Below are positions 8,579 through 61,192 of a stretch of 64,000 nt of DNA, in pieces (position 1 is the stretch's first letter; every line of letters begins with the position of its first letter). The stretch is from Lytechinus pictus (taxonomy: Eukaryota), in assembly GCF_037042905.1 (NCBI RefSeq), contig NC_087245.1, forward strand, positions 25,856,001-25,920,000, in the 5' to 3' direction. Below the pieces are notes generated by a model, which was not told the origin of the DNA, did not search any database, and saw nothing but the letters and a program-made list of their open reading frames with translations. The position numbers and the translations under genes are program-made.

Positions 8579-9153
8579 TTTTTGTCTCGCCCAAAAGAGG
8601 TGAAGGCGAGACTATTTAAGGGATTCAAATGTCATCCGTCGGTCGTCCATCCGTCACAAACATTATGACAGCTAGATTTAAGTCACTTTTCAACCAAATT
8701 TAGATTGTGGATGTACTAAGGGGACCTGCATGTTAAGGTGCAGTCGCAGGTCACATGATTAGGTCAAAGGTCATTTTTTAGGTTAACGTTAAATTTACAT
8801 GCACGACTCTCTTATGACACATAACTCCGCAACCGAAAGTCACTTTTCACCCAAACTTGGGCTGTAGAGGAACCTAGGAGACCTAAATGTGATGCTGCAG
8901 TCGGAGGTCATATGGTAAGATCAAAGGTCATTTTCAGGTCAATGTTCAAGTTTACGTCCAAGGCTTTCTTATGACACAAAATTCCGCAACCGTAAATAAT
9001 TGTCACACCCAAACTTGGCATGTAGAGGTACTTAGGAGACGTGCATGTGAAGCTACAGTCTGAGGTCACATGGTAAGGTCAAAGGTGATTTACAGGTCAA
9101 CGTTAAAGTTTACATGCAGTACTCTCTTATGACAGATAACTCCGCAACCATAT
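8579..9153 (+). mobile_element. Helentron-associated (HINE/DINE-like) element, 5' part with ~157-bp tandem repeats
   Basis: 5' end ttttgtctcgcc...ggcgagac hairpin, ccgtc microsatellite-like tract, then ~3.5 units (cttatgacac...ccgcaacc near 8810, 8968, 9126). 3' end uncertain; it may extend across the 9792-11405 insertion to ~11605. Confidence 0.6.
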
Positions 9154-13558: not shown

Positions 13559-14682
13559 GAACTAAAGATGCTCGGCGGGTCGCGCGACCGAGCACATGTA
13601 TCCCCCGAACCGACCGCATCATCCATCATTGCGATATATAGAGCTCACACAGAAATTTGACAAATAAAGAAATAAATACAATTAACGTGACAACAATGAC
13701 CCTGCCCACATTTTGCCTGTGGGTACCAAATTTCATGACAATAACATGACGCAGCAGCGTGACTCTGCAGAGCCTAAAATATTGTCCAGTAGCAACTATT
13801 GGTGATTACAATTATAGAGTAATATGGATATATTTTGTAAACCTAACCCTAAGACCCCCCCCCCCCCTACCAAAAATGATAGGCATCTTCGCTATACCTT
13901 TTAATATTGCTTCTGTGTGCCAACTGCTATGACAAACTTTCTATATGGGAACAGCATGGTATTATCATACATGTACCTTGGAATGAAGTAAGCATGATTC
14001 ATTGGTTTGTCATAGTTATTGGTAACACTCACCTGGATTGTTACCATGACCCCCTCCCCACCAACTTTATTCGCTTTACCTTCTAAAATTGATTCTGTGT
14101 GCTGTTATGACAAACTGGAAAAAAAACAGAAGTTACAGGTTTTACCAAATTTTCCACAAAAATATGGTTACCAAGGCAATTATGTCTCCACACATACCAA
14201 AATCAATAGGCAGCTTTGCTTAATGGACCTTCATGCCACATTTGAAGATGATCGGAGAAGAAATGCAGCTGGTAGAGCGCTCACAAGTACATCTCTGCTA
14301 TTTCCACAAAAGCTCGTTACCATGGCAACGATGTCTCCGCCCACACCAAAATTAATAGGCGGCTTTGTTTTACCACAATGGACCTTCATGCCACATTCGA
14401 AGATGATCGGAGAAGAAATGCAGCTGGTAGAGCGCTCCCAAGGACATCTCTGCTATTTCCACAAAAACACTTGTTTCCATGACAACGATGTATCCGCCCT
14501 CACCAAAAACGATAGGCGGCTTTTCTATACCATACCCGTCCTTCATGCCAAATTTGTAGATTATCGGAGAAGAAATGCAGCTGGTAGAGCGCTCACAAGG
14601 AAATCTCTGCGGCGGCGGACGCGGTGGCGCGACGAGGCCAAATCCATAGTATCCTCCGAAATCTGTTCGGGGGATACAATAA
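13559..14682 (-). mobile_element. Helentron-associated (HINE/DINE-1-like) element
   Basis: Perfect 14-bp subterminal inverted repeats tgtatcccccgaac (13597-13610) / gttcgggggataca (14665-14678); stem-loop tgctcgg...ccgagca (13569-13594); ~156-bp tandem units (atcggagaagaaatgcagctggtagagcgctc near 14250, 14405, 14562). Confidence 0.75.
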
Positions 14683-17843: not shown

Positions 17844-17886
<43 letters not shown>

Positions 17887-17889
<3 letters not shown>

Positions 17890-18226
17890 AAGTTATACAT
17901 GTACAACAGCTTTGGCAACTCTTTTATTTTAAATATTGTAAAGAAATGAATGAAGAGAACAATGGTAGGCGTAGCTTAAATCAAGGTTCCCCAGAGCTAT
18001 CTACCCTTTGGAAAAATTGGTGATGCCGAAAAAATGTCTCTGCCGGGAATCGAACCCGGGCCCCCAGCTTTGAACGCCGGTGCCTTAACCACTAGACCAC
18101 AGAGACGGGTTAGTGGCTCGGGCGACCCCGATCCGATTGACCGTCAGATAGACAGATTTTCGACACTATACCAATTATAATTTCCTTTGTCGGGTGAAGG
18201 TGGGTTTTGAACAATGACAAGCCGCC
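17887..18226 (-). mobile_element. 340-bp cassette inserted in a (TA)n tract, carrying an internal tRNA-like gene
   Basis: Flanked on both sides by (TA)n (17850-17886, 18227-18252); no TIR or poly(A) tail evident; tRNA lies in the middle. Confidence 0.65.
18035..18106 (-). tRNA. 72-nt tRNA-like gene, anticodon TCA (would read UGA); Glu/Asp-like D and T arms; function unproven
   Basis: GTCTCTG TG GTCT AGTGGTTA AGGC A CCGGC GTTCAAA GCTGG GGGC CCGGG TTCGATT CCCGG CAGAGAC A: all four stems pair, A and B boxes intact, immediately followed by TTTTTT. Confidence 0.75.
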
Positions 18227-20554
18227 ATATATATATATATATATATATATATGAATCATGAGAAAGAGACACATATCTCAACCTCACCAACAATGCGAGC
18301 GCGAAGCGCGAGCTGAAATTTTTTAGTATGACATGAAAACAGGAAAAATGTACCTGTTTAGGTTTGCTTGTAGTAACTCATGAGGAGCATAGATGTATCG
18401 CACTAGAGAGCGAGCTAAAATTTCTTTATATTCTGACGTAAAAGCTTGATATTCTAAGCACTTTTGGTACCAATGATTAAGATGGGTATCTAGAAGAACA
18501 ATAGATGCGAGCGCAAAGCGTCAGCTGAAAATTTTAATATATCGATCTGGACAAAAATACAATTTAATGGACGCTTTTATTAAAGAACAAGATACATATC
18601 CAACAAAAGATTATTGCAAATCGAAGCGGGAGTTCTTTTGAGGTATAGAACTGAAAACGGGACATTCTATTCACCTATTTAATCATGAAAAGTATGGGGT
18701 TTTGGTACAGAAATTATGCGAGCGCGAAGCGCGAGCTGAAAATGATTATATTCCGATCTGAAAAGCAGACATTTTGAGCACGATTTTAGATCAAAATCGA
18801 GTTGGTATCTTAATCTCGCTTGCTGGTTTCAGTGTAGCATTACAATCTTATTTTATTTTTAGTTGCACATGCGGAATTATTTGGAGGGGGGCAAAACGAT
18901 ATGTTCCCCCCAAATATTTTCATTGGTGGGGCTATTACTCTAATAGCTATATGGTCATTCCTTAGACGATTTATCTTGCCACCCTTTCACTCCCGTTTGT
19001 TTTTCCACCCTTTTGAATTAATTGATTTATTAAAATTAATTCATTCACCACTGGTGGGATGGAACACCCTATCAACAAAAGTTGTTTTTCGTTGGGGTCC
19101 TTTTATGTCATGTGTTAAAAAATATCATATACATAAACATTTCATTCTTTTTCATCTTGAACTTCCACCCATCTGTTTAATAGTCCTGAAAAAGAATGTT
19201 TTCATTTAATAACAATATACACAAATTGCGAGGGAAACAAACTGATTGATGGCATACTATAATCATCACTATAATCATCATGATCAAACTTTTCATTTTT
19301 TCATCATCATTATTATAATTTTTCTACCCTAAATTATTGGGGGGGGGGTGATAATACAGGCCATCCCCCCACTTGAAATATTGGGGGGATATATCCCCCC
19401 CATCCCCCCCCCCCCCGTGATCGACACCCATGTAACCTATACCATTTTAAAGCATAGATGTTCAGTTTTTTATGATCTAAAAATCATTTGGGCTCAAACA
19501 AAATAAAGTGTAAAAATATCAACTTTTGTCGGGTGAAAATAATTATTATGTAGCATATTTTAGATCAAAAGTTTCACCTACATTACAAAGTCTTTAAATA
19601 AATTCAAACACATGACGTAAAAGAATGATGCTTTTCCTTTACAATGATACCAAAATCATGAAATTTGGTGTATATACAGAGCTGCAATGACCGAATTAAA
19701 AGAGGTGTTTTGGTCCGCATCAAGCTCATTAAATATGCAAAACCTCTGAAGTCATGAATATCACTTGGATAAAAGAAGCCACTTTTTTGGACCTGCCTAC
19801 TGACTGCCATGATCACGTGCAAATGTCCCATAATTGCGAATGGCCTGCCGCCAATCACAGCAGTCTTAGCACCCAAAGCATAATCCTACAATACAAGAGG
19901 AACTGAGATATACCCTTGCGCGATTGAATGAAATTGAAAGTAAAAGCATCGACCTATCTAACAATTGAGTTTTCGCAACCATGGCAACAGCTACGCAGAT
20001 GATTTTTTGAACGAATACTGTCAAACGCCCTTCACGCCATTTTGCGATTTTTCTTCAGCTCTGAAACGTCGGACAAAAGAAAATTATAAAGAATTCATTG
20101 TGACTTTATTTGCATTTTCATTGCATTCGTTACGTTGTAGGATTTATTCCGTGTCGCTGAGCGAAAAGACGCTATTTTTTAGGGGGCAGAGATTGCATAC
20201 ATATCTGAATATTAAAAAAAAAAAAAAAACAAGCAGATATTGTATTTTGATCGGGCAACCAATAAAATTTTCCAGAAAATTTGCAGAATTTAAGCTGTAA
20301 AACACATATTTCTTTCATGATCCTCCACATCATAACTGTTTTGGGGGCATAATTATAAGCTAGTAATGAATTGGAATAGTGATAGACGCATTTTAGGGGA
20401 TTTGTTAAAACTAAAAACAGGCTTAAAAAGCAGACATACATATACAACAAAATTACATCCATAGCACTCTTTGTATGTAATAAATCGAGGAGCTAATTCG
20501 TTTTCAATCAGAATTTAACACGCTGTATATAATATAATTATCGTGTGTCGTTGA

Positions 20555-24609: not shown

Positions 24610-27600
24610 CTAAAGATGAAAAGATACGACATAAATCGATAACCGTAATAATATAGTGTCTTACATGTTTCGATCTAACCTCGTTCCTTTTTTCATGTAT
24701 TTCTTCACACGTTATCTACAATCACAGAATTTGATTTAACTTTTATGCATCAATTCTTAATCATTGACCTACCTTCAGCCGTGACACCTTAGTATTTTAA
24801 TGTATTTTGAGACGGGATGAATTTAAATTACTCTTTAACGATGAGACAATCCTGCCTTGTGAAATAACTTCCGCGTTTCGATTGCTGTGAATTTGCAAAT
24901 TCTTAATCCAGCGTTTGTTTTTGTTTAAATCATTAATTTCATGTTATAAAATTTATGGTGATTGATATTCAAGACTGCAACAAAATTTTATCTTCATGAT
25001 GATCATGTAAACGGCATCAAACTTGGATGTCAAAATATCAATTTCAATTTTTCATCCATTTACGCTGCAGTAATGAAATAAAAATGAACTTTTACGCGGT
25101 TATACTTACCGCCGAAGATGATACCATTTGGTGCCAAAGACTATCATCAAGATGACCAAAGCTGCCATGAAAACTGATGAGGTTATAGTTCTAATTTCTA
25201 GAGGTAAAATAGATATTTAAATCCAATCTGAAATATACGATTGTTGCTTAGAATCTGGAAATAAGTGTATCGTAACCATGCAGTGGCGTAATGAGCCAAA
25301 AACTTTGAGGGACCCAGATAATGGCCTATTAGGCCAAATTAATTTTTGTAATGCGAGCGAGCAAAACTTTCAACAATTTTATCACAAAAATCCAATTTGT
25401 GATAGATTTTTTACATAATATTCTAAAAATAATATATTTCACCCTTCTCTTTTTCCTTTCCTCTTTTTCACTTTTCTTTTCATGGGCGTTATGGTTGCTT
25501 GATAGAAGGTGTCAGCATTAAATTCTATTAAAGGAGAATCCAGCCTTGGCCATAAAATGTTGTGTTGGGAAGGAGAAAAATAAATTAAACAGAATGGTGA
25601 AAATTTGAAAGAAATCGGACAAGCAATAAGAAAGTTATAGCTGTTTTAAACTTGAGATCGCTAATACTATATGTATATTTCAAATTGGCAACTGGGTATG
25701 TATATTATGACAAGGGACAAGGACAACTTTCCCATAGGCCATGTACTTTATTATCAGGGATTTGTGGTTTTCTCCTAAGTACCCATTCCCCTGGGGCAGT
25801 AATCTAAATATAACCCAGGTAGTATATTGTTTTATGTCCTCATGAAAGAAAAATATGATTTGAAATAAAACTTTTAGGAAAAATGACATTTTAGCTATAA
25901 TATGTATTGGAGTACATGGAAGAGTAGTCCTTGCCTTACATCACTATGACATCCCATATGCGGCCAATTTGAAGTCTCCATGGGTGTAGTGATTACCAAT
26001 ATTTACAACTTTTAAAAATTCATAACTTTCTTTTTTTTGTCCAATATTGTTCAAACTTTCACCTATCAACTTGTCTCATTTTTCTTTTCTTTATAAAAAC
26101 AAGTTTTTATTTGGGTTGGATTCCCCTTTAACAATAACCAGTTAATATAGCGAGGGTATGTAATCAATAACTGTAGGAGGATCAGAAATATTGTTAAGAG
26201 TTCAGATAGAATAGTATATTCCAAAAATCAGAACTAATTGTATTTTATATGGAAAGGTAATTCGCATTTGTTTTGCTATATATATTAATTATAATCGCTA
26301 GAGGGTATTCATTTGTCTCGCAATCTACTATGGTCAACAAGGAAATTCGTGATCACTCTCGCAAAAAGTATTCACTAGCTTTCTAGGAAATTCGTGATCA
26401 CTCTCGCAAAAAGTGTTCACTAACTTACAAGTTCACGAGCTTTCGAGTGCCGCTGCAACTCTTTATCAAGTGACGAAAATTATGTGTGTGTATTTGAGTT
26501 TTGTCAGACGTGTAGGTGTATCAATCAGATATGATTATTTACGTCTGGGACCGACGAAAATTATCTGATAACGTAGTCTATTTATACCAATCCCCATGAC
26601 CGTACGCACGAACGCGGGAACAATAGGTGGGCACTGATCCGTTGTGTGATTGGTCGGGCGTTTCACCAATCAGTGCGTCGGTGTACGGTGCGGCCGGTGA
26701 TCCGTATATGCAAATAAGCCTGAGGTATATGCAAATACGCCGCGAGTCGGCAATATGCAAATAAGACAAAATTGGCGGGCTCGCTAGTTTTCCGTGGGTG
26801 GGTGTTGACTAGCTGAGCGGTCCCTCGATCGGGGCCGGGAACGATCGGGTCGGCGTGCACTGCCAGGTAAGGGGGTATTGTGCTGTCGGATGGTTCGCAT
26901 CCAGAAATCGGGGATGTCGATCCCGCTGTCTCTGTTGAAGTAGTTAGGACAAAGACGTATACTAATAGCCTCCTTAATCCTGCGTGTATACCAATGTCTC
27001 TCTTTGGCAACGCAATGTACACCCTCCCAATCTGGGTGGTGACCAATAGTATCATGCATAGGCTCATTTGCCTATAACCTATCAAAGTACCTGGCGGACA
27101 TCCTGTCCCCTCTCACTTACTGCTCAGAACACACGGTTTCCAACTCCAGTGAATTCGCTGAATTCACATCGGAGCAGACAATTAACGAACAAGAATCCAT
27201 GATCTCTTTTGATGTAGTCTCCTTCTTCACTAACGTACCGATAGAGGGCGCATGCAGTACGGCCCTGCAACGCATGCAATCCGACCCTACATTAGCAGAA
27301 CGTACCACACTTATGCCTGAACAAATAGCCGAACTCCTGGAGTTCGTCCTCAGATCCACATATTTTCTGTACAGAGGCTCTTTCTATGAGCAAACAGAAG
27401 GAGCAGCAATGGGTAGCCCAGTCTCAGCGGTTGTGGCTAACCTATATATGGAAGGTTTTGAACAGAACGCCTTGCCCAAGTGTCCTTCCACATGCCGCCC
27501 TCGGGTGTGGAAGAGATATGTCGATGACACTTTCATAATTGTAAATAGTTCTGAAACAGACAGCCTACTCGCATGCATGAATAGCCAGCAACCGTCCATC

Positions 27601-30600
27601 CAGTTCACTCTGGAGACTGAGCGAGGGAAATTAGCATTCCTTGACACGCTAGTCCAAAGACACGACGGCGGGAAACTCTCCACCTCTGTCTACCGCAAGC
27701 CCACTCATACAGACCAATACATACCTTATGATTCCCACCACGACATATCGGTCAAGAAGGGTCTTGTTAAATGCCTGTTCGACAGAGCAGCACGTATTAT
27801 AACTCACCCATCTGAACTCCCGAAAGAAAGAGCACACATACGTGGCGCCTTATACAGCAACGGCTACCCACGCCGTTTTATCGAGAACACTTTCAAGAAG
27901 AAACATCCGCCAAGGGATCAGAAGGTTTTCAAGACTTGCACAGTCTTGCCATACATAGATGGTCTTTCACCACAACTCAAACGCCGATTAGAAGGTCACG
28001 GTATCCGAACGGTTTTCTGCTGTGCTACGAATCACGTTCATGCCCCTGGCCCCGCGATATTGCGTAGTATGCTTCGGGTGCTGAGCCTTGCGATTCTGCT
28101 TCCGGGTACCTGAAACTGGCGATCGACACACGCTCTTCCAGTGGTTAGATTTTCCGCAGTTGTTACATGTAGTGCCATAGGCTGGGCATGCCTCACGTGG
28201 ACTGCGTGCACGTTTGCCACCACAATTTGGACATTTGTTACCATGGTTACTGCTAGATGTAGTCCTTTGTCGAACTACATGTACATCTACTGATGTTGGC
28301 TACATGTTGGTCCGAACTTGGGCAAGCTGCGCCATATGCATCTGGGATGCTTCAAATGTCCTGCTTAGTTCGAGAACTTGTGTGAGACTGAGGGTCTTGC
28401 CTTTACCCAATATGTCCTTCTGGAGCTCTGGATACCTTGTACCCGCTATAAATTGCTCGATGATTCGATCCTGAAGTTCAGTCTCATCTCGAAACTCGCA
28501 ATCATACGCCTGTAGCTTGAGACGTGATACAAAGTCATCTGTACTTTCCCTCTCTTCTGCGTATACTTTTGGAGAAATAGTCTAGCCACACAAAAATTAG
28601 CTCTAGGTTTCAGCTGTGTCTCAAACTTCTCCCAAACAATAACTGGGTTCTTGCGATCATTACCCTCCAGTCCCCACGAGTTGTAGAGCTTGATGCCTGT
28701 TGCACCGGTGAAAAGGAGGATATGGTCCACCTGCTTACCCACATCAATGTTCTTGACTGAGAAAAAGAGCTCACACTGTTGATAAAAGAGCTTTATTGCG
28801 CTAGCCCTATCAGGGTCATCCCAATCCATACGGGGTGTATAATCACTCATTGTTAAATCAGCAGTCAATATCACCACCAATAATAATGCAAACGTCAAAG
28901 TCACTTTTTACTCACAGGAAAGTCTGCATGTGGGACTGTAGTGAAAAAGCACCAGTGGAATCCAATGACAGTCTGCTATGAAATTGTCTCCAAAAAACAG
29001 TTCACAAATTATTCAAAGTTCCTCATTTTGCTCAGCGGGTTCTTGAATTAGCTGCCACCATGTTATGTGGGTTAGTTTGACTCTGATATAGACTGAAATG
29101 ACGACACGGATTGAGAATTGATATACAGTTCAGGTCCAGCCAGTCTGGTTGTTAATGTGTGTATGGAGTGCCAATATCACTGTCTCAATATGTATATGTG
29201 GGTGTGAAATGAACATAACATAACATATGACACAGTCCGCAATAATGAACCTATTTAGTAATATTTATTATACTTACTTGTTTGAATTTGTGAAGATGGT
29301 GTACTGATATGCGGTAGACTTTTCCCCTGATCTTCAGATAAGAATACTAAACATTTTGAAGACAGATATAATTTCAAATGGAATAAGGTTGTTTTGAAAG
29401 TTACAACTGCAAGTCAATGATATTTTTAACATCATTAAGAATGCTATACCATAGCGGCACGAAATCTACACTTAAAATGCACCGTTATCAGAAGTTTGAA
29501 ATGGTCCTAGATGTAAATAGATTATGAACTTGCTGTCATTTCTTTTGATGGAGAATTTTGTATATATTTACATTAAATATTGGAAAGCTATTGTGTCTCT
29601 TGGTCAGAAAAATAGATATGATGTAAATAAGCTGTTCTATCATAAAGAAAAAGTCCCTTTATCATCTTTCCGAAGAAAGTTTTAATGAAATCTTTATCAT
29701 CCATTTTATTGTAAACGGTTTGTTGCTCAACAGCTATCCAAAATAAAAAGGCAGATCGTTTAAATTAGAAGTGGCTACTTAAACATTAATAATTGTAATT
29801 ATTATGCAAAAGTTCTCTGTCGAGCAGTTTCATGACACATGGGTTAAGACGTATGTCCAAAAGCAATGATACTCAGCATGATTTTTCCTCAAGAAGCGTA
29901 ACCCATTAACTGCAAAAATAAGAGCAAGATACATGACAAGGTTGCTCCTAAACTAATCAAATAAGTTTTGAGTACACATAAAATTAATCCACTTAACAGT
30001 GCTTGATTAAGCTTACCATCAAAATTAGTATTAATATATTTGAGCCCTTTAATGTACTTTGTTAAAATATTTTTTGGGCAGTTGTTCAAATGGTGTTTTT
30101 TTTAATCAATCAGTGATAGACTCACTCCTATGTAGTGTAGTTGCACTTCTGCCAAGTTATTTTATTGTTTTTAGTTGAAATTTAACACCACTTTTATGAA
30201 GAGAACTTCGCTTTTGTGTTTTCTTAGTTTGTTCATACCGAGGATTTTTCGGGTTTTTTTTTATCTGGGTTTCATTACTATATATTTAAGCGTTCTCTTA
30301 CTTGAATTCATTACCTTTCAAATACCATTTATCCACCAGCACCTCGGTTGAATTTGAATATAGTCACTGGTTTAATATTTTTCTATTAATTTGAAAAAGA
30401 AAAACATTATTAATAGTAAAGTATGACGAATACCTGTCGTAGATTTAGGTGGTGGATTCGATGAAACAAGTATTGGTTTAGTTGTTTCTTTACTTGCTGG
30501 TGATGGTGCAATTGTTCCTGTTCCATCTGATGTGTTATAAAAAATAAAACGTGTTGCTCATGTCAACAGAAATAATGGTTCTCACAAAACGTTTCTGAAA

Positions 30601-31183
30601 AATGAAATTTTTTATTTTATCTTGGGTGTGGGAGGAGGGATCATCGAAATCATTTGTGTGAAGAAATATTTAGCACAATAACAATCAGAAAGTCAAGGTG
30701 GTCATTAATTATAAAGTTGCGACTGTTAGTACGATTTATATTATTAAAAAAGAGAACACAGATGTATTACCATCTTAAACCACCCCTAATTTTCATCGAC
30801 TGGTGGACTTGCCATTGTACGAAAGCGATCAATCATGTTTTAATTTATTTGGTTCTTACATGTGACGAAGCATGCTTGATACAGGGAAGATAAAATTTGA
30901 TCAGATTCCATTTGAAATATTCCTCTCGTCCAAGAATTTAAAGACACAGGGCCTTGGCCACATCGGATATAATCAATTGAAATCCAATTTTGCTTAATAG
31001 TTCTTAGTCTCTTGCCCAGGATGCAAACTTTTTTTCACATATTATTTTAATATAATTACACTAATAATAATAATGATGATGATGATGATGATGATGATGA
31101 CAATGATGATGATGATGATGACAATGATAATGATAATGATGATGATGATGATAATGATAATGATGATGATGATGATGATGACA

Positions 31184-31226
<43 letters not shown>

Positions 31227-31327
31227 CAATGATAATGATGATGATGATGACAATGATGATGATGACAATGATAATGATAATGATGATGATGATGATAATG
31301 ATAATGATGATGATGATGATGATGACA

Positions 31328-31370
<43 letters not shown>

Positions 31371-31477
31371 CAATGATGATGATGATGATGACAATGATAA
31401 TGATGATGATGATGACAATGATAATGATAATGATGATGATGATGATAATGATAATGAGGATGATGATGATGATGACA

Positions 31478-31508
<31 letters not shown>

Positions 31509-34319
31509 CGATGATGATGATGATGATTGCTGGATTTTAAGCACTTTGTGCCTGAGGATACAAATCGTTGCTATTATTACCCCAGCTTGAGCTATGCTGC
31601 CATATAGGCGCTGAAGCATTCCAGAAAATTCTTCCTATCGGGTACCCATTCGACTCACCTGGGTTGAGTGCTGTGGGTACATTTCTTGCTGAAGGTAAAC
31701 ACGTCATGGCTAGAATAATAACTCTCTTTAAGACATCTTTTTACAACATTGTCTCTAGCAATTAAGGGGCAAAATGATTCCAAAACGATCCTTAAAATGA
31801 TTCCAGTATACTTCTTAGCATTCGTGTCTTCTATAAATATAAAAATGCTAACGTGATTTTTTAAAGCTAAAATTGACAATGCATTTTCAATTGGTATATA
31901 AAAAGGCTAAAGGATCAAAGCTATCAATATATCAGCTGAAGCATGATTCCCATATTTATATACATATTTTGTTGTATATCCACCTAATCATGGCAAGAGC
32001 AAATGAAATACACATTTGAGTTTATTTTCATCTTCCAAAGATTAATATTTTCAACATTTTTATCGTCAAACACTGCTCTGTAATGAATAAAGTCCGAAAA
32101 GAATAATATTGAAAATACTGTATATAAAGCGTTATTAACCTGGTTTCTTAGCAGCTCGTAGCTGGATCCAGAATCCTGATTTGGTTGTGCTAAAATCAGT
32201 GGTAAAGATCATGGTGATTGAATTGGTAGATGATATGAAGTCTCGTGATTCTAGGACCTCATTCTCCCATAATCCTGTCCAGTCTCGCCATTTTGATCCT
32301 TGATTTGAAAAGCTATCAACACCATCGCATATGTACACGTGGTCGTGCCCGGTTTCGACATCGAATGATCTTACAATAACATCAATGACGTAGCCTTCAT
32401 GGGTTCGGATATCCCATAGACGATAGTAGTTGTTTGGGTAGTTTGACGGGTTATTCATTGACCTGATCGATATCGTTCCACCTTCATTTACTTCAGTTAT
32501 ATCTGGTGGAAAATGGAAATAAGAGCATGACATTGATCAAAGTGAGGAAACATGTTGCACGTTTTTACTTTCTAGCTCAATGATATATCTAGAACAAATT
32601 ATCGTCAGCTTTCTAGACATTATTGTAAGGTATTTACAAAGATACAATATGTCTTTTAATCATCTATCTATATATGTTATGTTTATCGTCACAGACAATA
32701 CAGAATAACCAGCTATGACAAGACAATAAGACCTCTTTGGAGTTTGTAATAACTCGTTATAAATAGTCATATCAAAAATAGATTCAAATTGGTAAATCGT
32801 TATTTTTATTAAAGCAATGTACCCAATTGAAATTCAAAGCATTAGCAATTTAGCTTTGTAAAAAGTATGCAAATGATTACCGATTTATTTACCTGACATA
32901 TTGGTACACGAGACGGTTACATTGAAATTCAGTTTCCTTTGGATTCGGGAAAATGTAACACTTATCCATGCTGAATTGCTTACTGATGTCACAACACTTG
33001 GTGAATCTGACCCACTGAAGCTTGCTAACCCAGTGTAAGTTAATGGGTCCTCAAAAAGCACACCAGCTCCATCTTTTTCAGTCCCTTCACCGATGCTCAT
33101 GAAAACATAGCCGGCTTCAAAATCAAAATCTGAAGTGGAGAATCTAATTCTATGGCGAGAAGTTGTGTTGAAAATCAAAACGAAGTTTTCTTCAACGTTC
33201 CCGTCTATATCAACTGATGAAATATTGTACTGCTCATCGCCTGTAAGCCAAACATAAGCTATGAAAGAAGAATGAAATAATTGTGGATATTAAAACATTC
33301 CCTATACACATACTGTATCAAGAATGAATTTTGTAGGAATACAAATTGATAGAAATGCACAGTGCGATATGAAATCTTTCTCTTATGAGAATTTCATCAA
33401 TTCTCCTCTAACGTCGAAAATATATGTCTTTCATACAATATATTCTGTTCATCCCAGCCAATACCACATTTTTACATTCATACTTCTTCCCTTTAACCAA
33501 CATTTTATAGCTCTTTCACAAATGGAAACCGACACAGAATACTGCAGGATTATATGATATTAAAAACTGCATCAACAACGCAAAATACACGCAAACATAT
33601 TAGACGTTGCTGCACTATGATGTGTAATACGAACGAGCTTAGTTGTCAAAAGTCTATACATCGTTAATATAAACCTTTTCAATTATATGTTTTTATTGCT
33701 TTACTCAATGTTCTATCCGTAAGATAGACACGGAAGATTCGTAACAGGGAGCAATCAAGTATCAATGTATTTGAACGCTATACACTCTTAAAATGTTGGG
33801 CATCATACTGTCCACACAACAATGGGTTTTAAAAAATATCCAACTCTGGGTAGTTTTTAACCAACACTGTGTAATTTTCACCCAAAGCACACATTATTGG
33901 TTTAAAACTACCCAGAATTTGATAAAGTTTTAACCAATTGTGGACAGTATGTTACCCAACATTTTTAAGAGTGTAGAAGGGAAATAAGAAATTCATAAAT
34001 TTCGCGGTGACATAGCGAATGGGGTAAATTAACGTGCAATACTAGTCTATTAAGTAATCTTCAATAATCAGATTTAGTTTGGTATGCCTAAAATGGATAT
34101 ATTACTCTTCCTTCGCAATGTTTATTAAATAGCATGTCTTTCGCACGAGGCAAACTTCCGACTATGTAAAACATACCAAGTTCTTTTATTATTTTTATTA
34201 GGAATTCAGGAGGTATACTTATTATTGTACTTACATGACCCTGCGCCACACATTTTAAGGAGAAGTATAAGACCCCAAAAACAATAGTTGCAAAAACTAA
34301 TTCCACGGACAGAAATCAT
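23892..34319 (-). CDS. Gene 1: type I membrane protein, signal peptide + 2 CUB-like domains + S/T/P stalk + TM + ~245-aa Tyr-containing tail (7 coding exons, 588 aa)
   Basis: Exons 34319-34235, 33258-32893, 32502-32140, 30526-30434, 29331-29278, 25197-25110, 24609-23892; all GT-AG, phases 1,1,1,1,1,2; 1767 nt with no internal stop. Confidence 0.8.
25110..25197 (-). CDS. Gene 1 transmembrane exon
   Basis: tacctctag|...|gtaagt; KIRTITSSVFMAALVILMIVFGTKWYHLRR; phase 1 to phase 2, matching the last exon. Confidence 0.8.
25281..25485. mobile_element. hAT-type MITE fragment
   Basis: Begins cagtggcgtaatgagcc; reverse complement resembles ~11120-11320. Confidence 0.55.
25532..26127. mobile_element. 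Kolobok-type MITE, family K2
   Basis: TTAA at 25528-25531 and 26128-26131; TIRs aggagaatccagcc / ggttggattcccct with degenerate longer arms. Confidence 0.8.
26341..27044 (-). mobile_element. Penelope-like element, 3' segment: GIY-YIG C-terminal part, 3' region and hammerhead-like motif
   Basis: Minus frame GHHPDWEGVHCVAKERHWYTRRIKEAISIRLCPNYFNRDSG matches the PLE endonuclease C-terminus; terminal 45-bp tandem duplication at 26341-26425. Confidence 0.8.
26436..26475 (-). ncRNA. Atypical minimal hammerhead-ribozyme-like motif of a Penelope terminal repeat
   Basis: Minus strand cTTGATAAa-GAGT-tgcagcggc-ACTC-GAAAgc: stem II and GAAA present, core deviates from CUGANGA. Confidence 0.45.
27041..28017 (+). 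mobile_element. Penelope-like element reverse transcriptase segment (uninterrupted frame, inverted relative to its 3' end)
   Basis: Open frame from PIVSCIGSFAYNLSKYL through SFDVVSFFTNVP, QTEGAAMGSPVS, RYVDDTF, FLD, VYRKPTHTDQY to GIRTVF. Confidence 0.9.
28018..29232 (-). mobile_element. Gypsy-type (Mag-like) LTR retrotransposon remnant: 5' LTR, PBS and degenerate gag
   Basis: LTR 29232-29061 (TGTCAT...ATAACA); PBS TGGTGGCAGC (29060-29051, complementary to a tRNA-Leu 3' end); gag MSDYTPRMDW...VWEKFE, frameshift near 28548, ESTDDFVSRL..., an in-frame stop, then CPNCGG...CPAYGTTCNNCGKSNHWKSVC zinc knuckles. Confidence 0.85.
29278..29331 (-). CDS. Gene 1 stalk exon 2
   Basis: ttatctgaag|...|gtaagt; 54 nt, DQGKSLPHISTPSSQIQT; phase 1-1. 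Confidence 0.65.
30434..30526 (-). CDS. Gene 1 stalk exon 1 (Pro/Ser/Thr-rich)
   Basis: acacatcag|...|gtattc; 93 nt, DGTGTIAPSPASKETTKPILVSSNPPPKSTT; phase 1-1. Confidence 0.7.
31065..31526. repeat. (GAT)n microsatellite with GAC/AAT variant units
   Basis: ~460 bp of gat triplets with recurring gacaat and gataat interruptions. Confidence 0.95.
31527..31720 (-). mobile_element. 5'-truncated SINE-like element whose 3' tail runs into the microsatellite
   Basis: Minus strand contains caacccaggtgagtcgaatgggtacc (resembles a conserved SINE central motif) and ends cacaaagtgcttaaaatccagc-aatcatcatc, like LINE-derived tails ending in short repeats. Confidence 0.55.
32140..32502 (-). CDS. Gene 1 CUB domain 2 exon
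   Basis: SMNNPSNYPNNYYRLWDI...FDVETGHDHVYICDG...SSTNSITMIFTTDFSTTKSGFWIQL follows the CUB consensus; 363 nt, phase 1-1. Confidence 0.9.
32893..33258 (-). CDS. Gene 1 divergent CUB-like domain 1 exon
   Basis: ttctttcatag|...|gtaaat; 366 nt, phase 1-1; RIRFSTSDFDFEAGYVFMSIGEG...SFSGSDSPSVVTSVSNSAWISVTF. Confidence 0.85.
33783..33973. mobile_element. 191-bp palindromic EnSpm/CACTA-type MITE (also at 49571-49761 and 59401-59591)
   Basis: TA|cactcttaaaa ... ttttaagagtg|TA with paired internal arms; present in intron 1 of all three paralogues. Confidence 0.8.
34235..34319 (-). CDS. Gene 1 signal-peptide exon
   Basis: gccATG context; MISVRGISFCNYCFWGLILLLKMCGAGS then gtaagt donor, phase 1; conserved in all three copies. 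Confidence 0.8.
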
Positions 34320-34779
34320 GGCTAACAACTCTGCCAGGCAATGTTTCCTAAATGACAATAGATACGGGGCTAAAACCTAAACATCAAGCTGGTTCTTGAT
34401 ATCCTGGTGAATAACAGAAGCGAGTGACGCAATATCTTTCGCTTTCATACATGATTGTCAAGCAAGTAATTATACCAGTATACTCTTACACAAGCAATTA
34501 TACCAGTACACGTTGTTATATTTAGTCTGAAGTAAGGTGGAAAGTGAGGAACGCAAAACAGATTGCCCTAAACTGATAGTTGACATTATTTTTAATATCA
34601 CCAACATCATTATTACTCTATACTATTACTAGTATCATTACTGTTGCAGTTTTTATTCTTAGTAACCGTCGCATCGTATCCAAACGTCATCACCTTGCCG
34701 AATGTTTTAGTATATTAGCACTTACACAGTGACGGACTTAACTAGCTTTGCTATTGACAGTTTCTGAAGGGTTAGCGTG

Positions 34780-35215
34780 TTCTCTCTTACCAAGACCTAA
34801 CTCTGAACATGGTTATATTATTTATGAAGGAGTATAGAATCCATCACTTAACAGACTTTGTTTAATTTTCCAAAAATTGAAAAAAGCTCCTTTTTTTCCC
34901 TGTCAGAGAAGGAGAACAAGTGAAAGAAAATCACGTGATAAGAAGAAGTTTGCTATTTTTTTCTCGCCACCAAAAACAGTCACGTTTAATGTTTAGGGAT
35001 AGCGAGAATACACACGCTGTCTAATGATGGCGCACTTCCTTGTTGTTAAATTCCGTACAGACCAGCTTTTGAATATGTTTTTTTTTCATCGAAGTAGCAT
35101 TTAAGCCAGGAAGCACCCATCACCTCAGGGAAACGATTTACCATCCTGACACCCTCTCTCTAAAGATAAATCAGCTACTGAACAATCAATAACAACGATT
35201 CACTTCCGGAATGTA
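34780..35215 (-). promoter_or_regulatory. Candidate 5' non-coding exon / promoter region (paralogous at ~50570-51005 and ~61430-62155)
   Basis: Minus-strand donor-like g|gtaaga near 34790 and acceptor tttag just upstream of the ATG in all copies; YY1-like gatggcg (~35026) and Ets-like cacttccgga (35201-35210) retained in the diverged copy C. Motif matches only. Confidence 0.3.
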
Positions 35216-37544
35216 TATTTAATGGATGGGTTCAAAATTTATTAGCATTTAATATTTTTTTAATCAATTTTAATGAAAAATATTTATGCTGTGTTTAATT
35301 GGTCGAGCATGAGCTGAATACAACCGTTAATGATATTTCGTTGTTTGGCAATTATGAAACCCTTCATTATTTTGGAATCCTTTGAAGTGATTCGTTGAAT
35401 TGTTCGAGTTAAAAGCAATCAGTAACTTTATCCTGGATTCAAAATCCAAATACTGATTCACCAGATAATTCATTCATTATGGCAATTCTTTAGATCAGAC
35501 TAGAATAGCCATCGCTTTAACAACCAAGTAGTCAGCAATTTATCAAGATATAAACGATGGCGTGATATGGGTACCATATACCATTTCGACTTTTCTCCGG
35601 CAGGTAAAGTCTCCATGTGTCGGATGTCGTCGTGCTGAGAGCACTTATGAAAGGCGAATGACAAGCCTCGATTATTGGTAACATCTTCAGATAGATAATA
35701 ATAACTTCAATTTTGTATAAAAAGGTTTGTAAAATCGTTATTTATACGACGGAGAGATACGGTTTACCTCTCATATCATAGATAATAATGCTTCATACTT
35801 TTTACAAAAATAATTCATGCATTTGACAGGTATATTATATTCTTTTTTATTAAATCACAAATTCAATTCTCGGGTACTTCAGCTTTTTTTCATTATGCAA
35901 CCTCTCTCCCTCTCATTCTCTCATCTCTCAATCGTTTCCTATCATATTTCTATGACACTCCCTTGCCATCTTCTCCCCCCCCCCCCACCTCCCTCCTCCC
36001 CCTCCCCCTCTCTCTCTCTTGCACTAATTCAGACATACAGTATATGGAACTGCTTTTGAAGACAATCATGACAATCAAATTGCTCAACGCTGAATATTGC
36101 TGTAAAGTCTATGACGCCCTCTTTCGTGATGCCTTAGAGGTAACTTCTGCAGATCCATACATGGTTTGAGGCAGCTGCCCCTCCCCCATTTTCAAACAAG
36201 GGAATTTTCTGTTGAATCTTGTTGTATTGTTTATCATCGTAATTTTTGTTGAATTCCCTTAAATATATATCCGATTGACTCTTCTGCACTCCTAAATGTT
36301 TACTAAATTTAAATTTATCTTTTCTCGCTCGCACATTTTCCCCATAAAATGCACCGTATCAACTCAGCCCCCGGTAGATATTTGCCTCATTATTCACCAC
36401 TAAATATAATAATCTAGTACAATGTAGTAAAATTTAGTACAAATAACAACTAAACGAGGAGGTCAATTTATGATAAATTGCAAAATTCTGACACATTTTG
36501 CAGTTACATATTCACAATTGCCGCGGTAGTAGGTTGCAGTTTTAAGGGTCGTTTCGAAGCAAAAACAAAATTGGCAAATTACAAACCAATAGAATCCACA
36601 GGCTTAGAAACAAATGTATACAATAACAGAAGTTCGATACATTTTCACCGTTTAAAAGTTGAGTATTTGGCTTCAGAAACACTCCTACCAGCCAGCCCGC
36701 TAGACAGCCTTTATTTCACTTTTAACGGGCCAGATGTCAGGCGTCATCTCCTCTGAGTGGAATTGTGAAAGACTGAAAGCAGTTGTTTGCATGTTGACAA
36801 ATTTTGAATATTTGCTCTCTTTTTTTTTTGTTACATTTATGAATACGAATGATATTAAACAATATGATAATAAAAAATATCATTATCTAAAGGAAGGATT
36901 TTAGTGCTTAAAAGCAAAGTATATAATTTATACCATATTTTGTAACTATTTGTATTTTCTGTACTTGGCTACCCTCCCCCACCTAAAATATTTGGGATGT
37001 ATCAACCACCACCCCCCCTTTCCCCCTTGTGATCGACAACCATGGTCGATAGCTGCGGATTTTGTAGATTTTAGGGGGGGAGTTTCAAAGCAGAATGGAA
37101 ATGCATTAAGAGAAGTTAGGGAGCTTTATCTGTGTTATGGGGAATAATTTTCGAGTTTCCAAAATGCAAAAATCAGCAAATAAAGGAGTCAAGATACAAC
37201 AAGGGTCCAAGCTGAATATATATTAAGTTTATCAGTCTCTAATAATAAAGTCCATTATGATTTTCTCTTTTTAGTAAGTATGTATTTTATTCATTCTATT
37301 TGAAAATACATATTGCAAAAAATAACAAATCCAATTAATTCATTGGGTGTTTATATGTAAATTCATTGTAATACAGCACTGTGAACAAAATAATGTGTAC
37401 CCTGATAGCACATGAAGAACTAGAACTACAAAAAATGAACAGGGAAATCATATTGAGATTTAATAACCGATACTCCTCGTCTAGGTTTGGAAGATATTCT
37501 AAGTACATATACTATATACTGATACTAAAAATATATGCAATATA

Positions 37545-37725
37545 CTACTGCAATACCAATACTTATACTACTACTAATTATGTTACTACTACTACTAGGT
37601 CTACTACTACTACCATAACTACCACTAATACGACTATACGACTGCTATAACTAATATTACTAAAACTACTAATAGTATTACCACTAATACCACCACAATA
37701 TAACTGCGTGTACTACCACTATTTT
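37545..37725. repeat. Degenerate (ACT)n tract (paralogous at ~53327-53507)
   Basis: act/acc/aat triplet runs. Confidence 0.75.
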
Positions 37726-38378
37726 GACATGTCTGCTATATATTGCTATTCCTACTGGTGAAAGTGTGGAATCAAAGTAATTACTGATATTTCAAATCAT
37801 TACTATTTTCTATTAATCACGACAATGACAAAAATTCAGTCACAACTAGTATTTGACATGATTTTAATGCTGGATATGTTGAATTCATCAAGTAATTTTG
37901 CATCCGAGGAACTACTATACTTCTTACACTACGAACCCTGTTAAGTATTTGAATATAATTTCTACTCCTGCTAAGATTATAGTCATACAGCGGTGCCCAA
38001 TCAAACTGGAAATTACTCATAGGTATACATTGTATACAAACGCACAAAGTGACACTTTGCATAAAACACACCCACACAATTATTTTGATGGAGAAATTTG
38101 CATAATGAAGAAGCTATAGATATCGTTGGGGTTTGGGGGAGGTTGAAAATGAAAATATTTCTAGCAAAATAACTGTACATGCTGAGTTAATATTCTAAAA
38201 TTAGATATCCAAATTTGTCATTCCCGATTGATCCAATTTTGTCCTCTGAACTATTCCCATCGTATCCCGAGCCGCATCGTGTAAATTTGCTCTCTCATGT
38301 GTGGGGTTAGAATTTCTGATCGAGATGGTATTACTCTCTCTTAATCTACTAGGGCCTACAGACATGGCAGAGGGATTC

Positions 38379-38852
38379 TTAATAGCGGTTAGAAGTGCCA
38401 GTGCTGTCGATGTTATAATAATGACTCGACAATTGCTCATCCTTTCCTCCGAAGCTTTTCATCGTCATCATAGAATTTTCGTAGGCATGGTAGGTGTGGG
38501 GAGATCCTTGCTGACTACTAGAAAGGGATGTATCCAAGTATGTATGATTGATATCTGTATAACCATCTCGACTGACTGGGGATTGTTCATCAGGTAGTTC
38601 TCCTCCCTTGTCTCTGTCTGGAACCATGTATCCAAACTCATCTACACGTTCATTATCAGGACCAGATGCTGGACAATTAGAGTCTCCCACAGGACTATGG
38701 GATGGAGCTAGAAGGTATTCAGGGATAGTTTCATACGGTCTACCAGGAAGAGAATCAGGTTCAGTGGAAGATTCTTGTACTCTTTCTCCCGTAGGTTCTT
38801 CGTCTTGCATGATGTGTAGTCTCTCTGACTCGGGACCCTTTGCCGAAATGTC
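38379..38852 (-). CDS. Gene 2 last exon: Tyr-rich cytoplasmic tail
   Basis: ctcttcttcttag|DISAKGPESERLHIMQDEE...; 10 tyrosines including YETI, YMVP, YTDI, YENS, YYNI. Confidence 0.8.
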   Translation of the reverse strand, partial: DISAKGPESERLHIMQDEEPTGERVQESSTEPDSLPGRPYETIPEYLLAPSHSPVGDSNCPASGPDNERVDEFGYMVPDRDKGGELPDEQSPVSRDGYTDINHTYLDTSLSSSQQGSPHTYHAYENSMMTMKSFGGKDEQLSSHYYNIDSTGTSNRY

Positions 38853-41800
38853 CTAAGAAGAAGAGTTATGGAAAACAAATATCCCGGGCAAATTGATAAA
38901 ATCACTAAATTCCTCGTAAAAATATTTGGTAAATATCGTCATCATAGATAGTGTGTTTCGTTGCGAAAACACGTAAACACAGACACGTGAACCAAATATA
39001 AAATTATGTAGCTTTTCTTTCTCGTTCAATTGTAGTCGGAGATAATGAAAGCATAAGAATAATTTGTGACTGATAAACATTACAGAACCAAGAAAAGATT
39101 AACAACAAATGTAATTATTCTCCTTAAACATCGATCTCTTTAATTTCGGGATTCCTTAATTAGCATTTATAAAATTTATTCGTTTCTTTCTTAAACAGTT
39201 AAATATTAATATGCCTAAATATTACCAAACTGCAGAGATTTATCAATACTTTCTCCATCAAAATATCTAGAACTTTTTAATTTTAAAGAATGAACTTCTG
39301 AATCGTATTAGCGCACGTTATGTATGACAGTCACAGTATCTTCGTTCTAATTTTTACCATACATGTTCCTTTCTAAAACATCAATAATAAAAAAAAATCG
39401 AAAAGCAATCAAATTACTGTCCAATTGTAAAAAAAAATGTTTCTTACCGTGTCATTACGCGCTGTCTGTTTCCGTCGTTTATATTTTAAGACCGTGCAGG
39501 TAAGAATGACCAGGAGCAAAATGGATGATGATATAATGGCTACCCACTTGAAAATAAGGGTGTCTAATAGTGGACCTAATGGGAAAAATAAATCAAGGAT
39601 TATTTATTGATAAGGTGAATGTCTGTTTACCAACAAAAGAACATCAAAAAGTACGTAATTGCTGACGCAATCAAGGTTGTTCACAGTTTTATCATATTTA
39701 GTGTTTCCATTCTACCGTATTCATCTTTATGTTAGTGAAATTCTAAATCCTCCATTCGCAATGCCGGATTTTCCTTTGACATCCTGACGAAGAAATTGAG
39801 GGGGCCCATTCAAATGAAGATCATAAACGTAAATGAATTTGAAATTGTAATATTGGTAATGGCACTGGAGGTGAGTCTATTTTGAAGCTAGAGAATGTAC
39901 TACAGACACCTGTCTGATCATTGCTAGTATATACCTCAATCTTGACTTTCATTTGGATTAAGAGTTTCTCTCCAAATTTTTTACCTAGATAGGAAGTGTC
40001 AAATGTAGATTAGTGTCCCAACGCTATAGAGTTTGATGAGTTACCATTAGATTGCATAACATACAAAAATGCATTCATTGGGAAGTGTAACGTACCCGTT
40101 GTAATTATATATGATGAGGTTGATGGAACAGGATCTTCGTGGGTTGTGCTCGCATTTGATGTTGTTGTTGTTGTTGCCACTGATGCTGCTGATGCTGTTG
40201 TTGCTGCTGCTACGTTTAAGAATAAAACATATTTTCATGCCAACAACAGATGATGTTCCTTACAAAACAAAAAAAATATTATGTATACTCTTGTTGTTAT
40301 TGTTGCTGTTTCAAATACTCATTAAACCTCAAATGAAAATTATTTTATCGTATGGTATATAATGAAAGTCGTCACTTGCCTTAATCGAATAAATATTTCA
40401 TTAACTTTAGTAGCCATCAACCTTTGATGTACACTTCTTACCCTCCGGATGATATACATTCCATGAAATAAAGAAGTACTGACGGTAAGTTATTTAATGT
40501 TCTTATTTACTTGACCTATAAATTTTTCATCGCGTAAGAAAGTCAGCCATTTATGTTATAAAGAAATTGGCTTGATGACAAAAATGCACATGGAAAAACA
40601 TAAGAGCATTGTAAATTGATTTCAACTCAAATTCAAATTTTCAAAACGATAGTCTGATTCGTCGTGCTTTTTGTTTAAAACACAAGACCCTGAAATGATT
40701 GTGTATCTCAATAGTGACAAATTTATAGCCAATCATTCAAAATCAGAGAAATTGATAACTGTTTGTGCAGAGTATCGGTGACGGGAAAATCTCAATTTAT
40801 GTAGTGTCCCATGTTTGAGGTGTAACGTTATTGTTTTAGTGGCCAAAACATGGGGTAGTATGTGCACAGCGGTTTGTAACCGAAAGGAAAAGGCGCTATA
40901 TCTTACGACCTTTGGGTGAGATTGGATTGAATAGTCTGATTCATCGTGCTTTATGCAATCACATAATAATATCACGACAATATTAGGAACCGATAATTAT
41001 CTGAGGGGATTCGACATTGGCTTTACAACGTCACCGTTTAACACTGCAAACATTCAAAACGTTTTTTTTTTATATGGTACTTGTTTACACAGAGTCTACA
41101 CAATTTTAGTGAGCTTTCCCAGGTAACAAGCCAACGTTGGCTCCACGTTGGAAACTTGAAAGTCGTTGGACGTTGGAAAAACTTGATGGATTAACGTTGA
41201 ATCGACGTTGGAAACTAGTTTGATGGAAAGATGATGGACAATCAACAATGACACGACGTTGCAACGTTGGAAACTTGTTAGTTGGAGAGTTGTTGGACAG
41301 TCGACAATGTCACAACGTTGGAAACACGTTTGATTGGATAGTTGTTGAACAGCCAGCAATGGCACAACGTTGGCAACGTTGGAAACTAGTTCGCTGGAAA
41401 GTTGTTGAACAACCGACAATGGCACAACGTTGACAAAGTTGGAAACTAGTTTGTTGGAGATTTGTTGGACAGTCGACAATGGCACAACGTTGGAGACTAG
41501 TAAGTTGGAGAGTTGTTGACAGCCAGCAAATGCACAACGTTGGCAACGTTGGAAACTAGTTTGCTGGAAAGTTGTTGAACAATCAACAATGACACGACGT
41601 TGGCAACGTTGGAAACTTGTTAGTTGGAGAGTTGTTGGACAGTCGACAATGGCAGAACGATGGAAACTAGTAGGTTGGAGATTAGTTGGATAGTCGACGA
41701 TGACACAAGGTTGGCAACGTTGGAAACTAGTTCGATGGAAAGTTGTTGAACAACCAACTATGGCACAACGTTGTCAAAGCTATAGAAACTAGTTCGATGG

Positions 41801-61188: not shown

Positions 61189-61192
61189 TTAA

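What the first reader, a model, noticed from the sequence alone, without database searches (positions are those of the whole stretch)
17887..18226. Fully paired tRNA cloverleaf with a UGA-reading (UCA) anticodon carried in a TA-targeting cassette
Seen: 18106-18035 folds with 7/4/5/5-bp stems, has intact A and B boxes, loop GTTCAAA (anticodon TCA) and is followed immediately by T6. It sits mid-cassette (~120 bp upstream, ~150 bp downstream), not at the 5' end as in a typical SINE. Known: tRNA-Sec has a long variable arm and a 9/4 fold, which this lacks; its D and T arms resemble tRNA-Glu/Asp. Inference: either a mobile, Pol III-transcribed opal-suppressor-like tRNA or a tRNA-mimic used by a new mobile family. 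G at position 32 is atypical and may prevent decoding.
Basis: partly seen in the sequence, partly recalled or inferred. Interest (0 to 1): 0.75.

Follow-up and report, generated by a model that had tools for sequence, protein, structure and literature searches.

The report
tRNA-bearing mobile repeat in TA microsatellite
The stop-codon-reading "tRNA gene" is a real, fully paired cloverleaf, but it is one module of a very abundant repeat sitting in a TA microsatellite, which likely spreads with the enzymes of Penelope-like jumping genes and is probably not a working suppressor tRNA.

Summary
The cloverleaf is real: 72 nt, 21 of 21 stem pairs, TCA, G32, T6. It is not tRNA-Sec: it has a 7+5 fold, a 4-nt variable loop and A73. 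It belongs to a high-copy repeat: 8,297 contigs of one DNA run lie on it. The tRNA is nearly invariant among copies while the 5' flank varies, so TCA and G32 are the family majority. Other copies end inside the cassette or join head-to-head, which fits Penelope-like insertion better than a solo LTR. New here: the 5' flank is an old inverted copy of the tRNA's 3' half and downstream DNA (1 of 2,000 shuffles). The long RNA is predicted to fold into a rod that dismantles the cloverleaf. Best reading: a piece of a non-autonomous, ribozyme-less Penelope-type element whose tRNA fold serves the element rather than translation. No mature tRNA, tandem unit or autonomous partner was shown here. The scan noted this family before in the same genome, and similar ones in other genomes.

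The parts
17850..17885 (.). (TA)18 tract, left part of the target microsatellite
17886..18227 (-). 342-bp inserted piece of the repeat; the outer T and A may belong to the TA tract, so the TG...CA ends carry only one informative base each
   Evidence: high copy number
18107..18227 (-). 121-nt 5' flank: variable among copies; an inverted, diverged copy of the tRNA 3' half plus downstream DNA, including a second A-box-like motif on the + strand near 18108-18122
18035..18106 (-). tRNA-like cloverleaf, 72 nt, 7/4/5/5 stems, 4-nt variable loop, discriminator A; Gly/Glu/Asp/His structural group
18088..18099 (-). A box (D-arm region)
   Evidence: read from the sequence and the Rfam alignment; box consensus recalled
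18069..18075 (-). anticodon loop with G32 (18075) and TCA (18073-18071)
18046..18055 (-). B box (T loop)
   Evidence: read from the sequence and the Rfam alignment; box consensus recalled
18029..18034 (-). T6, Pol III terminator-like run directly after the discriminator
17968..18065 (-). 3' arm of the internal inverted repeat, predicted to pair with the 5' flank as a rod (best-matching core 18065-18015 with 18121-18176)
17886..17935 (-). about 50-nt AT-rich 3' end that some other copies lack (they meet TA runs at 17933-17937)
   Evidence: loose ends in run X23
18228..18251 (.). (TA)12 tract, right part of the target microsatellite

Best explanation
The cloverleaf is one module of a very abundant non-coding repeat, and this 342-bp copy is likely a truncated insertion made in a (TA)n tract by the nicking and reverse-transcribing enzyme of a Penelope-like retrotransposon. 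Steps: (1) shown: the repeat is high-copy, its tRNA module is nearly invariant, and copies have variable ends and head-to-head joints. (2) Inferred: the long RNA comes from read-through transcription, because Pol III started at the A/B boxes would stop at T6 after about 80-90 nt. (3) Predicted: the long RNA folds into a rod in which the 5' flank pairs with the T arm, acceptor strand and downstream DNA, while an RNA lacking the 5' flank folds as a cloverleaf. (4) Inferred: a Penelope-like RT/GIY-YIG protein nicks (TA)n and copies the RNA, often incompletely. (5) Inferred, weakest step: the tRNA fold is kept because host tRNA machinery (Pol III factors, RNase P/Z) acts on it for the element, most likely to set RNA ends where retrozymes use a hammerhead. 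Those enzymes do not read the anticodon (recalled), so the loop was free to drift to G32/TCA, probably from a Gly(TCC)-type loop.
For:: 8,297 contigs of DNA run X4 laid on the stretch; summed word depth about 0.9-1.0 million over the tRNA versus 30-65 for the eight X4 single pieces listed (the tool warns this is no copy number). One contig each from runs X11 and X9 spans the tRNA with 1 difference, at 18119, outside it. In X4, 0 of 72 tRNA sites versus 16 of 113 upstream sites show a variant at 3% depth or more among the 40 rows shown (Fisher p 0.0003; p 0.04 if all 3 hidden X4 variants lay in the tRNA). Variable ends: RNA reads that start at 17933 (54 reads) and 17937 (69 reads) follow TA runs. 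Head-to-head joints: 35 RNA reads turn from the + strand at 18199 into the tRNA-sense strand near 18050, and 6 of 15 listed X4 joints are on opposite strands, 3 of them far from the internal inverted-repeat register. RNA depth falls from 928 to 413 towards the tRNA-sense 5' side. Craig et al. 2021 (PMC8557442, passages) list (TA)n targets, 5' truncation, an adjacent inverted 5'-truncated copy and a 30-40-bp optional tail as marks of Naiad and other PLE insertions. Rod: -115.1 kcal/mol versus -98.1 with the cloverleaf enforced; 0 of 150 flank shuffles as stable; inverted repeat matched by 1 of 2,000 shuffles.
Against: No second full copy could be fetched: no genome is held and 10 collection scans gave no relative. 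Tandem units and the 404-409-bp unit length rest only on earlier AI notes. No autonomous partner was found; the PLE-like RT fragment in this window shares no sequence with the cassette. The lay tool masked both ends and dropped 28 loose ends, so the family's true termini were not seen. Head-to-head RNA reads could be library artefacts, and each X4 joint is one contig. The depth gradient may reflect flank divergence and a few expressed loci (A68G is in 47% of RNA reads but 0.5% of DNA depth). The rod shows no compensatory pair among the listed variants (7 keep, 5 break, 11 unpaired of 23) and no G-U bias (5 G-U versus 7 A-C mismatches), so it may be a relic of an inverted duplication. If the rod forms, it hides the cloverleaf (acceptor and T-stem probability 0.0), which argues against RNase P/Z cutting of the long RNA unless folding is kinetic. 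Against tRNA versus all flanks, the conservation contrast is not significant in the worst case (p 0.31).
Confidence: 0.55

Rival explanations
1. A solo LTR of a Helenus-type TRIM (non-autonomous LTR element with a tRNA-derived Pol III promoter in its LTR), inserted by a Gypsy integrase into a TA tract.
For: TG...CA ends; tRNA in mid-element followed by a T run, as in printed Helenus LTRs (PMC10886601 supplement parts 1 and 8); length 342 bp versus a longest Helenus LTR of 323 bp; Helenus copies were miscalled as suppressor tRNA genes in rust fungi; an AATAAA at 17928-17923.
Against: The outer T and A can belong to the TA tract; copies end inside the cassette and join head-to-head; the paper lists six animal phyla, none an echinoderm, and 0 of 4 cassette motifs occur in a Helenus LTR of its data file (the one hit is in an internal part); the AATAAA positions vary in 14-19% of depth.
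Confidence: 0.13
2. A tRNA-derived SINE with a 5' extension, mobilised by a LINE (CR1/L2/RTE) and landing in TA repeats.
For: Intact A and B boxes; 5'-side truncation and high copy number; sea-urchin tRNA SINEs with CR1/L2 partners are listed in PMC3747384 (table passage).
Against: T6 directly after the tRNA would end a Pol III transcript before the 149-nt body, and 121 nt lie upstream of the promoter; a fully paired cloverleaf is not needed for a SINE promoter (recalled). The SURF1 paper could not be read.
Confidence: 0.13
3. A MITE or foldback DNA transposon whose decayed terminal inverted repeats are the two arms of the rod, inserted at TA.
For: The inverted arms reach the cassette's outer base at 18226; TA flanks on both sides.
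Against: The other arm ends at 17968, 82 bp inside the cassette; the arms are only about 70% alike in their best 56 nt although the family is young; ends vary among copies.
Confidence: 0.07
4. A functional, mobile opal (UGA) suppressor tRNA, transcribed by Pol III, CCA-added, charged and used in read-through.
For: 21 of 21 pairs, intact boxes and terminator; the isolated pre-tRNA folds as a cloverleaf (acceptor 0.78, anticodon 0.89, T 0.76, D 0.15); TCA is the family majority.
Against: G32 in 0 of 85 comparable database tRNAs; no G73 or long variable arm for SerRS (PMC5330540 passages); U2-A71 and A36 where Gly identity uses C2-G71 and C36 in bacteria, yeast and archaea (PMC9976931 passage; higher-eukaryote determinants are stated there to be unknown); thousands of active suppressor genes would be expected to be harmful (inference); RNA reads lie equally on both strands (1,026 first and 995 second mates; e.g. 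302 versus 310 over the anticodon) with no start or stop peak.
Confidence: 0.04

Closest known systems
Penelope-like elements with (TA)n bias (Naiad, Neptune) and non-autonomous Chlamys families such as MRC1 (Craig et al. 2021, PMC8557442; passages read)
   Same: (TA)n target that hides any duplication, variable truncation, inverted 5'-truncated copy joined head-to-head, optional 30-50-bp end segment, no coding capacity
   Different: Carries a complete tRNA cloverleaf with A/B boxes and T6; no homology to an autonomous PLE was shown
Animal non-LTR retrozymes (Cervera and de la Pena 2020, PMC7229834, passages; Li, Clavereau and Pollet 2026, 10.64898/2026.07.22.740005, parts 1-3 of 5 read)
   Same: 150-450-bp non-coding unit, proposed PLE dependence, many monomeric copies
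   Different: No hammerhead (no Rfam ribozyme match, no exact core motif); a tRNA module instead; tandem arrangement and circular RNA not tested here
Helenus / TRIMp3 (Kojima 2024, PMC10886601; parts 1-4 of 6 and supplement parts 1, 8, 10 of 11 read)
   Same: tRNA-like sequence in the middle of a mobile unit, followed by a T run; miscalled as tRNA or suppressor genes
   Different: No second LTR, PBS or PPT here; ends vary among copies; microsatellite target
tRNA-derived SINE2 families of sea urchins (SURF1/SINE2-4c_SP and others; table of PMC3747384)
   Same: tRNA-derived A/B boxes, high copy number, about 300 bp
   Different: tRNA is internal and closed by T6; sequences could not be compared
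tRNA-Sec (PMC5330540; passages read)
   Same: UCA anticodon only
   Different: 12-bp acceptor+T stem, 4-nt variable loop, A73, multicopy

Membership tests
tRNA-Sec | 13-bp acceptor+T stem (9/4 in eukaryotes) | tested here: not met
   7+5 pairs; feature
tRNA-Sec | G73 discriminator | tested here: not met
   A
tRNA-Sec | long variable arm | tested here: not met
   4 nt
canonical cytosolic tRNA | cloverleaf, A/B boxes, T-run terminator | tested here: met
canonical cytosolic tRNA | pyrimidine at position 32 | tested here: not met
   G32; 52 T and 33 C, 0 purines among 85 database matches
canonical cytosolic tRNA | synthetase identity set (Gly: G1-C72, C2-G71, C35, C36, A73) | tested here: not met
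   G1-C72, C35 and A73 present; U2-A71 and A36 differ. Other isotypes not gone through one by one
canonical cytosolic tRNA | mature CCA-ended, charged RNA | not testable with these tools
   only a 150-nt paired RNA-seq run was laid
non-autonomous Penelope-like element | insertion in (TA)n | tested here: met
non-autonomous Penelope-like element | variable truncation and inverted 5'-truncated partner copy | tested here: met
   loose ends and opposite-strand joints; few loci, ends masked
non-autonomous Penelope-like element | partial or full tandem units (pLTR) | not testable with these tools
   single copy in the window; reported only in earlier notes
non-autonomous Penelope-like element | shared end with an autonomous PLE | tested here: inconclusive
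   no match to the one PLE-like fragment in the window; genome not held
non-LTR retrozyme | type I hammerhead in the unit | tested here: not met
   a part of the unit missing from this copy could not be examined
non-LTR retrozyme | monomeric or circular RNA | not testable with these tools
   one search shows no start or stop peaks
Helenus TRIM | TG...CA LTR with fixed ends | tested here: inconclusive
   TG...CA present but half supplied by the TA tract; other copies end internally
Helenus TRIM | two LTRs with PBS and PPT | tested here: not met
   absent at this locus; a solo LTR is not excluded
Helenus TRIM | 4-bp target duplication | tested here: inconclusive
   hidden in (TA)n
tRNA-derived SINE | tRNA head at the 5' end with Pol III read-through into the body | tested here: not met
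   121 nt upstream and T6 after the tRNA
tRNA-derived SINE | 3' tail shared with a LINE | not tested
   no repeat library or genome available

The most novel reading that the evidence does not exclude
A class of Penelope-dependent retroelements that replaces the hammerhead ribozyme with a whole tRNA: host RNase P/Z cut long read-through transcripts at the cloverleaf to release unit RNAs, and a built-in antisense arm switches the RNA into a protected rod that serves as the template for insertion into (TA)n.
Probability: 0.2. Interest if true: 0.75.

Novelty: new variant of a known kind. Interest (0 to 1): 0.4.

Why it matters
If the best reading holds, non-autonomous parasites of Penelope-like elements can carry a tRNA module where retrozymes carry a ribozyme. 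I did not find this described in 10 paper searches (open-licence library only, Repbase and Dfam not searched). It gives a direct test of what PLE RNAs need for processing. In practice, the family will inflate tRNA-SeC or suppressor counts in this genome's annotation. A working multicopy opal suppressor would be far more surprising but is unlikely.

Tried and rejected
Genome-wide copy analysis was not possible. Collection scans gave no relative: viral 5 scans, genome 4 scans, metagenome 1 scan. The 52 metagenome loci matched only over the T arm and acceptor motif and look like unrelated insect-type SINEs and microbial tRNAs (label recalled; part of that output was cut). L139-L142 were chance 19-21-mers. 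A protein search with a spurious reading frame across the tRNA found nothing. Rfam at E<=10 added only weak hits, most to the TA runs. The sigma-70 scan is irrelevant to an animal genome. One search was a self-comparison without information. Rod covariation and G-U bias tests were inconclusive. Of 24 runs listed, 4 were laid. Supplements of the bioRxiv preprint were not seen; they could list related families.

Full report
Observation. The window is AT-rich, repeat-laden animal DNA; earlier notes call the genome a sea urchin, which I did not test. ARAGORN finds one tRNA, 18106-18035 on the minus strand with anticodon TCA. Rfam scores it 60.9 bits as RF00005, the only match at gathering level in 64 kb. 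None of 30 shuffled windows gave a tRNA. All 21 stem pairs form, two as G-U; the loop carries G32, the variable loop has 4 nt, the discriminator is A and T6 follows. The cassette, 17886-18227, lies between the only two long TA runs of the window and has no second copy in it.

What the tRNA is not. It lacks the 13-bp acceptor+T stem, the long variable arm and G73 of tRNA-Sec (PMC5330540, passages); that paper also shows ARAGORN over-calls tRNA-Sec in animals. Among 85 database tRNA-like matches with the same D loop and T arm, the anticodons were Gly 36, Glu 31, Asp 9, His 7, Thr 1 and Ile 1. Position 32 was T in 52, C in 33 and never a purine. The best identity was 55 of 72, to a Gly-TCC gene, with Glu-TTC genes at 54. 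These are mostly microbial or viral records, not the host's own genes. The Gly determinants C2-G71 and C36 (PMC9976931, passage) are absent.

The family. No genome is held, so I used sequencing runs: 20 of 24 listed hold the stretch or part of it, and 4 were laid. In DNA run X4, 8,297 contigs lie on it. Summed word depth over the tRNA is about 0.9-1.0 million against 30-65 for single pieces; the tool says this is not a copy number, but it points to thousands of copies or more. One contig each from X11 and X9 spans the whole tRNA with a single difference, at 18119 in the flank. Of 117 variant rows, 40 were shown. X4 has 26 variants at 3% or more, 23 of them among those shown: none in the 72 tRNA sites, and 16 of 113 upstream sites affected (p 0.0003; 0.04 if the 3 hidden ones all lay in the tRNA; against all flanks 0.006 and 0.31). 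G32A is 0.3% of depth. A young burst explains this as well as function does.

Ends and joints. The tool masked both ends, so the family's termini were not seen. Inside, RNA reads of run X23 begin at 17933 (54 reads) and 17937 (69) directly after TA runs, and others end at 18004 in a (CT)n run. Thirty-five reads turn at 18199 into the tRNA-sense strand near 18050 (matched by eye), a head-to-head joint of two 5'-truncated copies. Six of 15 listed X4 joints are on opposite strands, 3 of them far from the internal repeat's register. RNA depth falls from 928 to 413 towards the tRNA-sense 5' side, with the caveats given under the best explanation. RNA reads lie equally on both strands with no start or stop peak, as expected for copies embedded in longer transcripts or an unstranded library. 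Craig et al. 2021 (PMC8557442, passages) give (TA)n targets, 5' truncation, an inverted 5'-truncated neighbour and an optional 30-40-bp tail as marks of Penelope-like insertions. Frangieh et al. 2024 (PMC11167929, passages) show a PLE enzyme cutting AT-rich DNA and starting reverse transcription inside the RNA. The TG...CA ends first suggested a Helenus solo LTR (PMC10886601), but the outer T and A can belong to the TA tract and the variable ends argue against it.

An internal inverted duplication. The 5' flank is an inverted copy of the tRNA's 3' half and downstream DNA: 70% over 56 nt, matched by 1 of 2,000 shuffles, and extendable under relaxed scoring to the cassette's outer base. The 342-nt RNA folds into a rod of -115.1 kcal/mol (z -5.07; 0 of 150 flank shuffles as stable), 17 kcal/mol better than with the cloverleaf enforced. 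In it the acceptor, D and T stems have probability 0.0, while a Pol III-sized pre-tRNA keeps them at 0.78, 0.15 and 0.76. The twin arm has lost its anticodon arm while the tRNA stayed fully paired, which suggests selection on the cloverleaf in the master lineage (inference). Whether the rod itself is selected is open: no compensatory pair appears among the listed variants and there is no G-U bias.

Mechanism. I commit to a non-autonomous Penelope-type element (0.55). Read-through transcripts supply the long RNA, since T6 would stop Pol III right after the tRNA. A PLE enzyme inserts truncated copies into (TA)n. The tRNA fold is used by host tRNA machinery for the element, most likely for end-setting, leaving the anticodon free to drift. 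High copy number, conservation and variable ends are shown; the rod is predicted; PLE mobilisation and the tRNA's role are inferred. Rivals: Helenus solo LTR 0.13, SINE 0.13, MITE/foldback 0.07, working opal suppressor 0.04.

Earlier notes. The scan's notes on this genome describe a 404-409-bp tRNA-bearing unit in TA tracts, in tandem and head-to-head, and similar elements in other genomes. They moved me from the solo-LTR idea to the PLE reading and gave me the Craig and retrozyme leads. A sequence look-up found no look-alike windows, so that they mean this same family is my inference from their description. I confirmed abundance, TA flanks and head-to-head joints, but not the unit length, the tandems or the TCC ancestor.

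Comparison and verdict. It works like a non-autonomous PLE derivative or retrozyme, but it fails the retrozyme's defining hammerhead test and PLE membership lacks a shown partner. I found no description of such a tRNA-bearing element in 10 searches of the open library; repeat databases could not be searched. Verdict: a new variant of a known kind, interest 0.4. The suppressor reading is unlikely. The reading in which a tRNA replaces the ribozyme has probability about 0.2 and would deserve 0.75.

Noticed in passing
window 27043-28113 (+): 356-aa open frame with an RVT_1 domain (E 1.6e-08) whose motifs look Penelope/Poseidon-like (label recalled); a truncated retroelement 9 kb from the cassette, with no shared sequence.
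   Followed up: partly
window 28446-28907 (-): 153-aa open frame that looks like a gag fragment of an LTR retrotransposon (recalled resemblance).
   Followed up: no
window about 32100-38900, 47900-54700 and 58500-63000: Segmental duplication at 15.8-kb spacing with a partial third copy, 91-100% alike, carrying CUB-domain exons.
   Followed up: partly
window 18293-18318, 18505-18535, 18716-18741: A 26-31-bp GC-rich motif recurs three times just right of the cassette; the TA tract may itself lie in an older repeat.
   Followed up: no
window 18039: Acceptor-stem variant A68G (keeps pairing as U-G) is in 47% of RNA reads but 0.5% of DNA depth, so a few loci dominate the RNA signal.
   Followed up: partly
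window 31073-31527, 41205-42361, 46692-47132, 8680-9149, 14151-14610: Long (ATG)n-type microsatellite and several 51-170-bp tandem arrays.
   Followed up: no
L071 and L107: Short contigs of two bacterial genome records carry what look like animal-type tRNA-Glu genes followed by (CA)n, probably host contamination.
   Followed up: no
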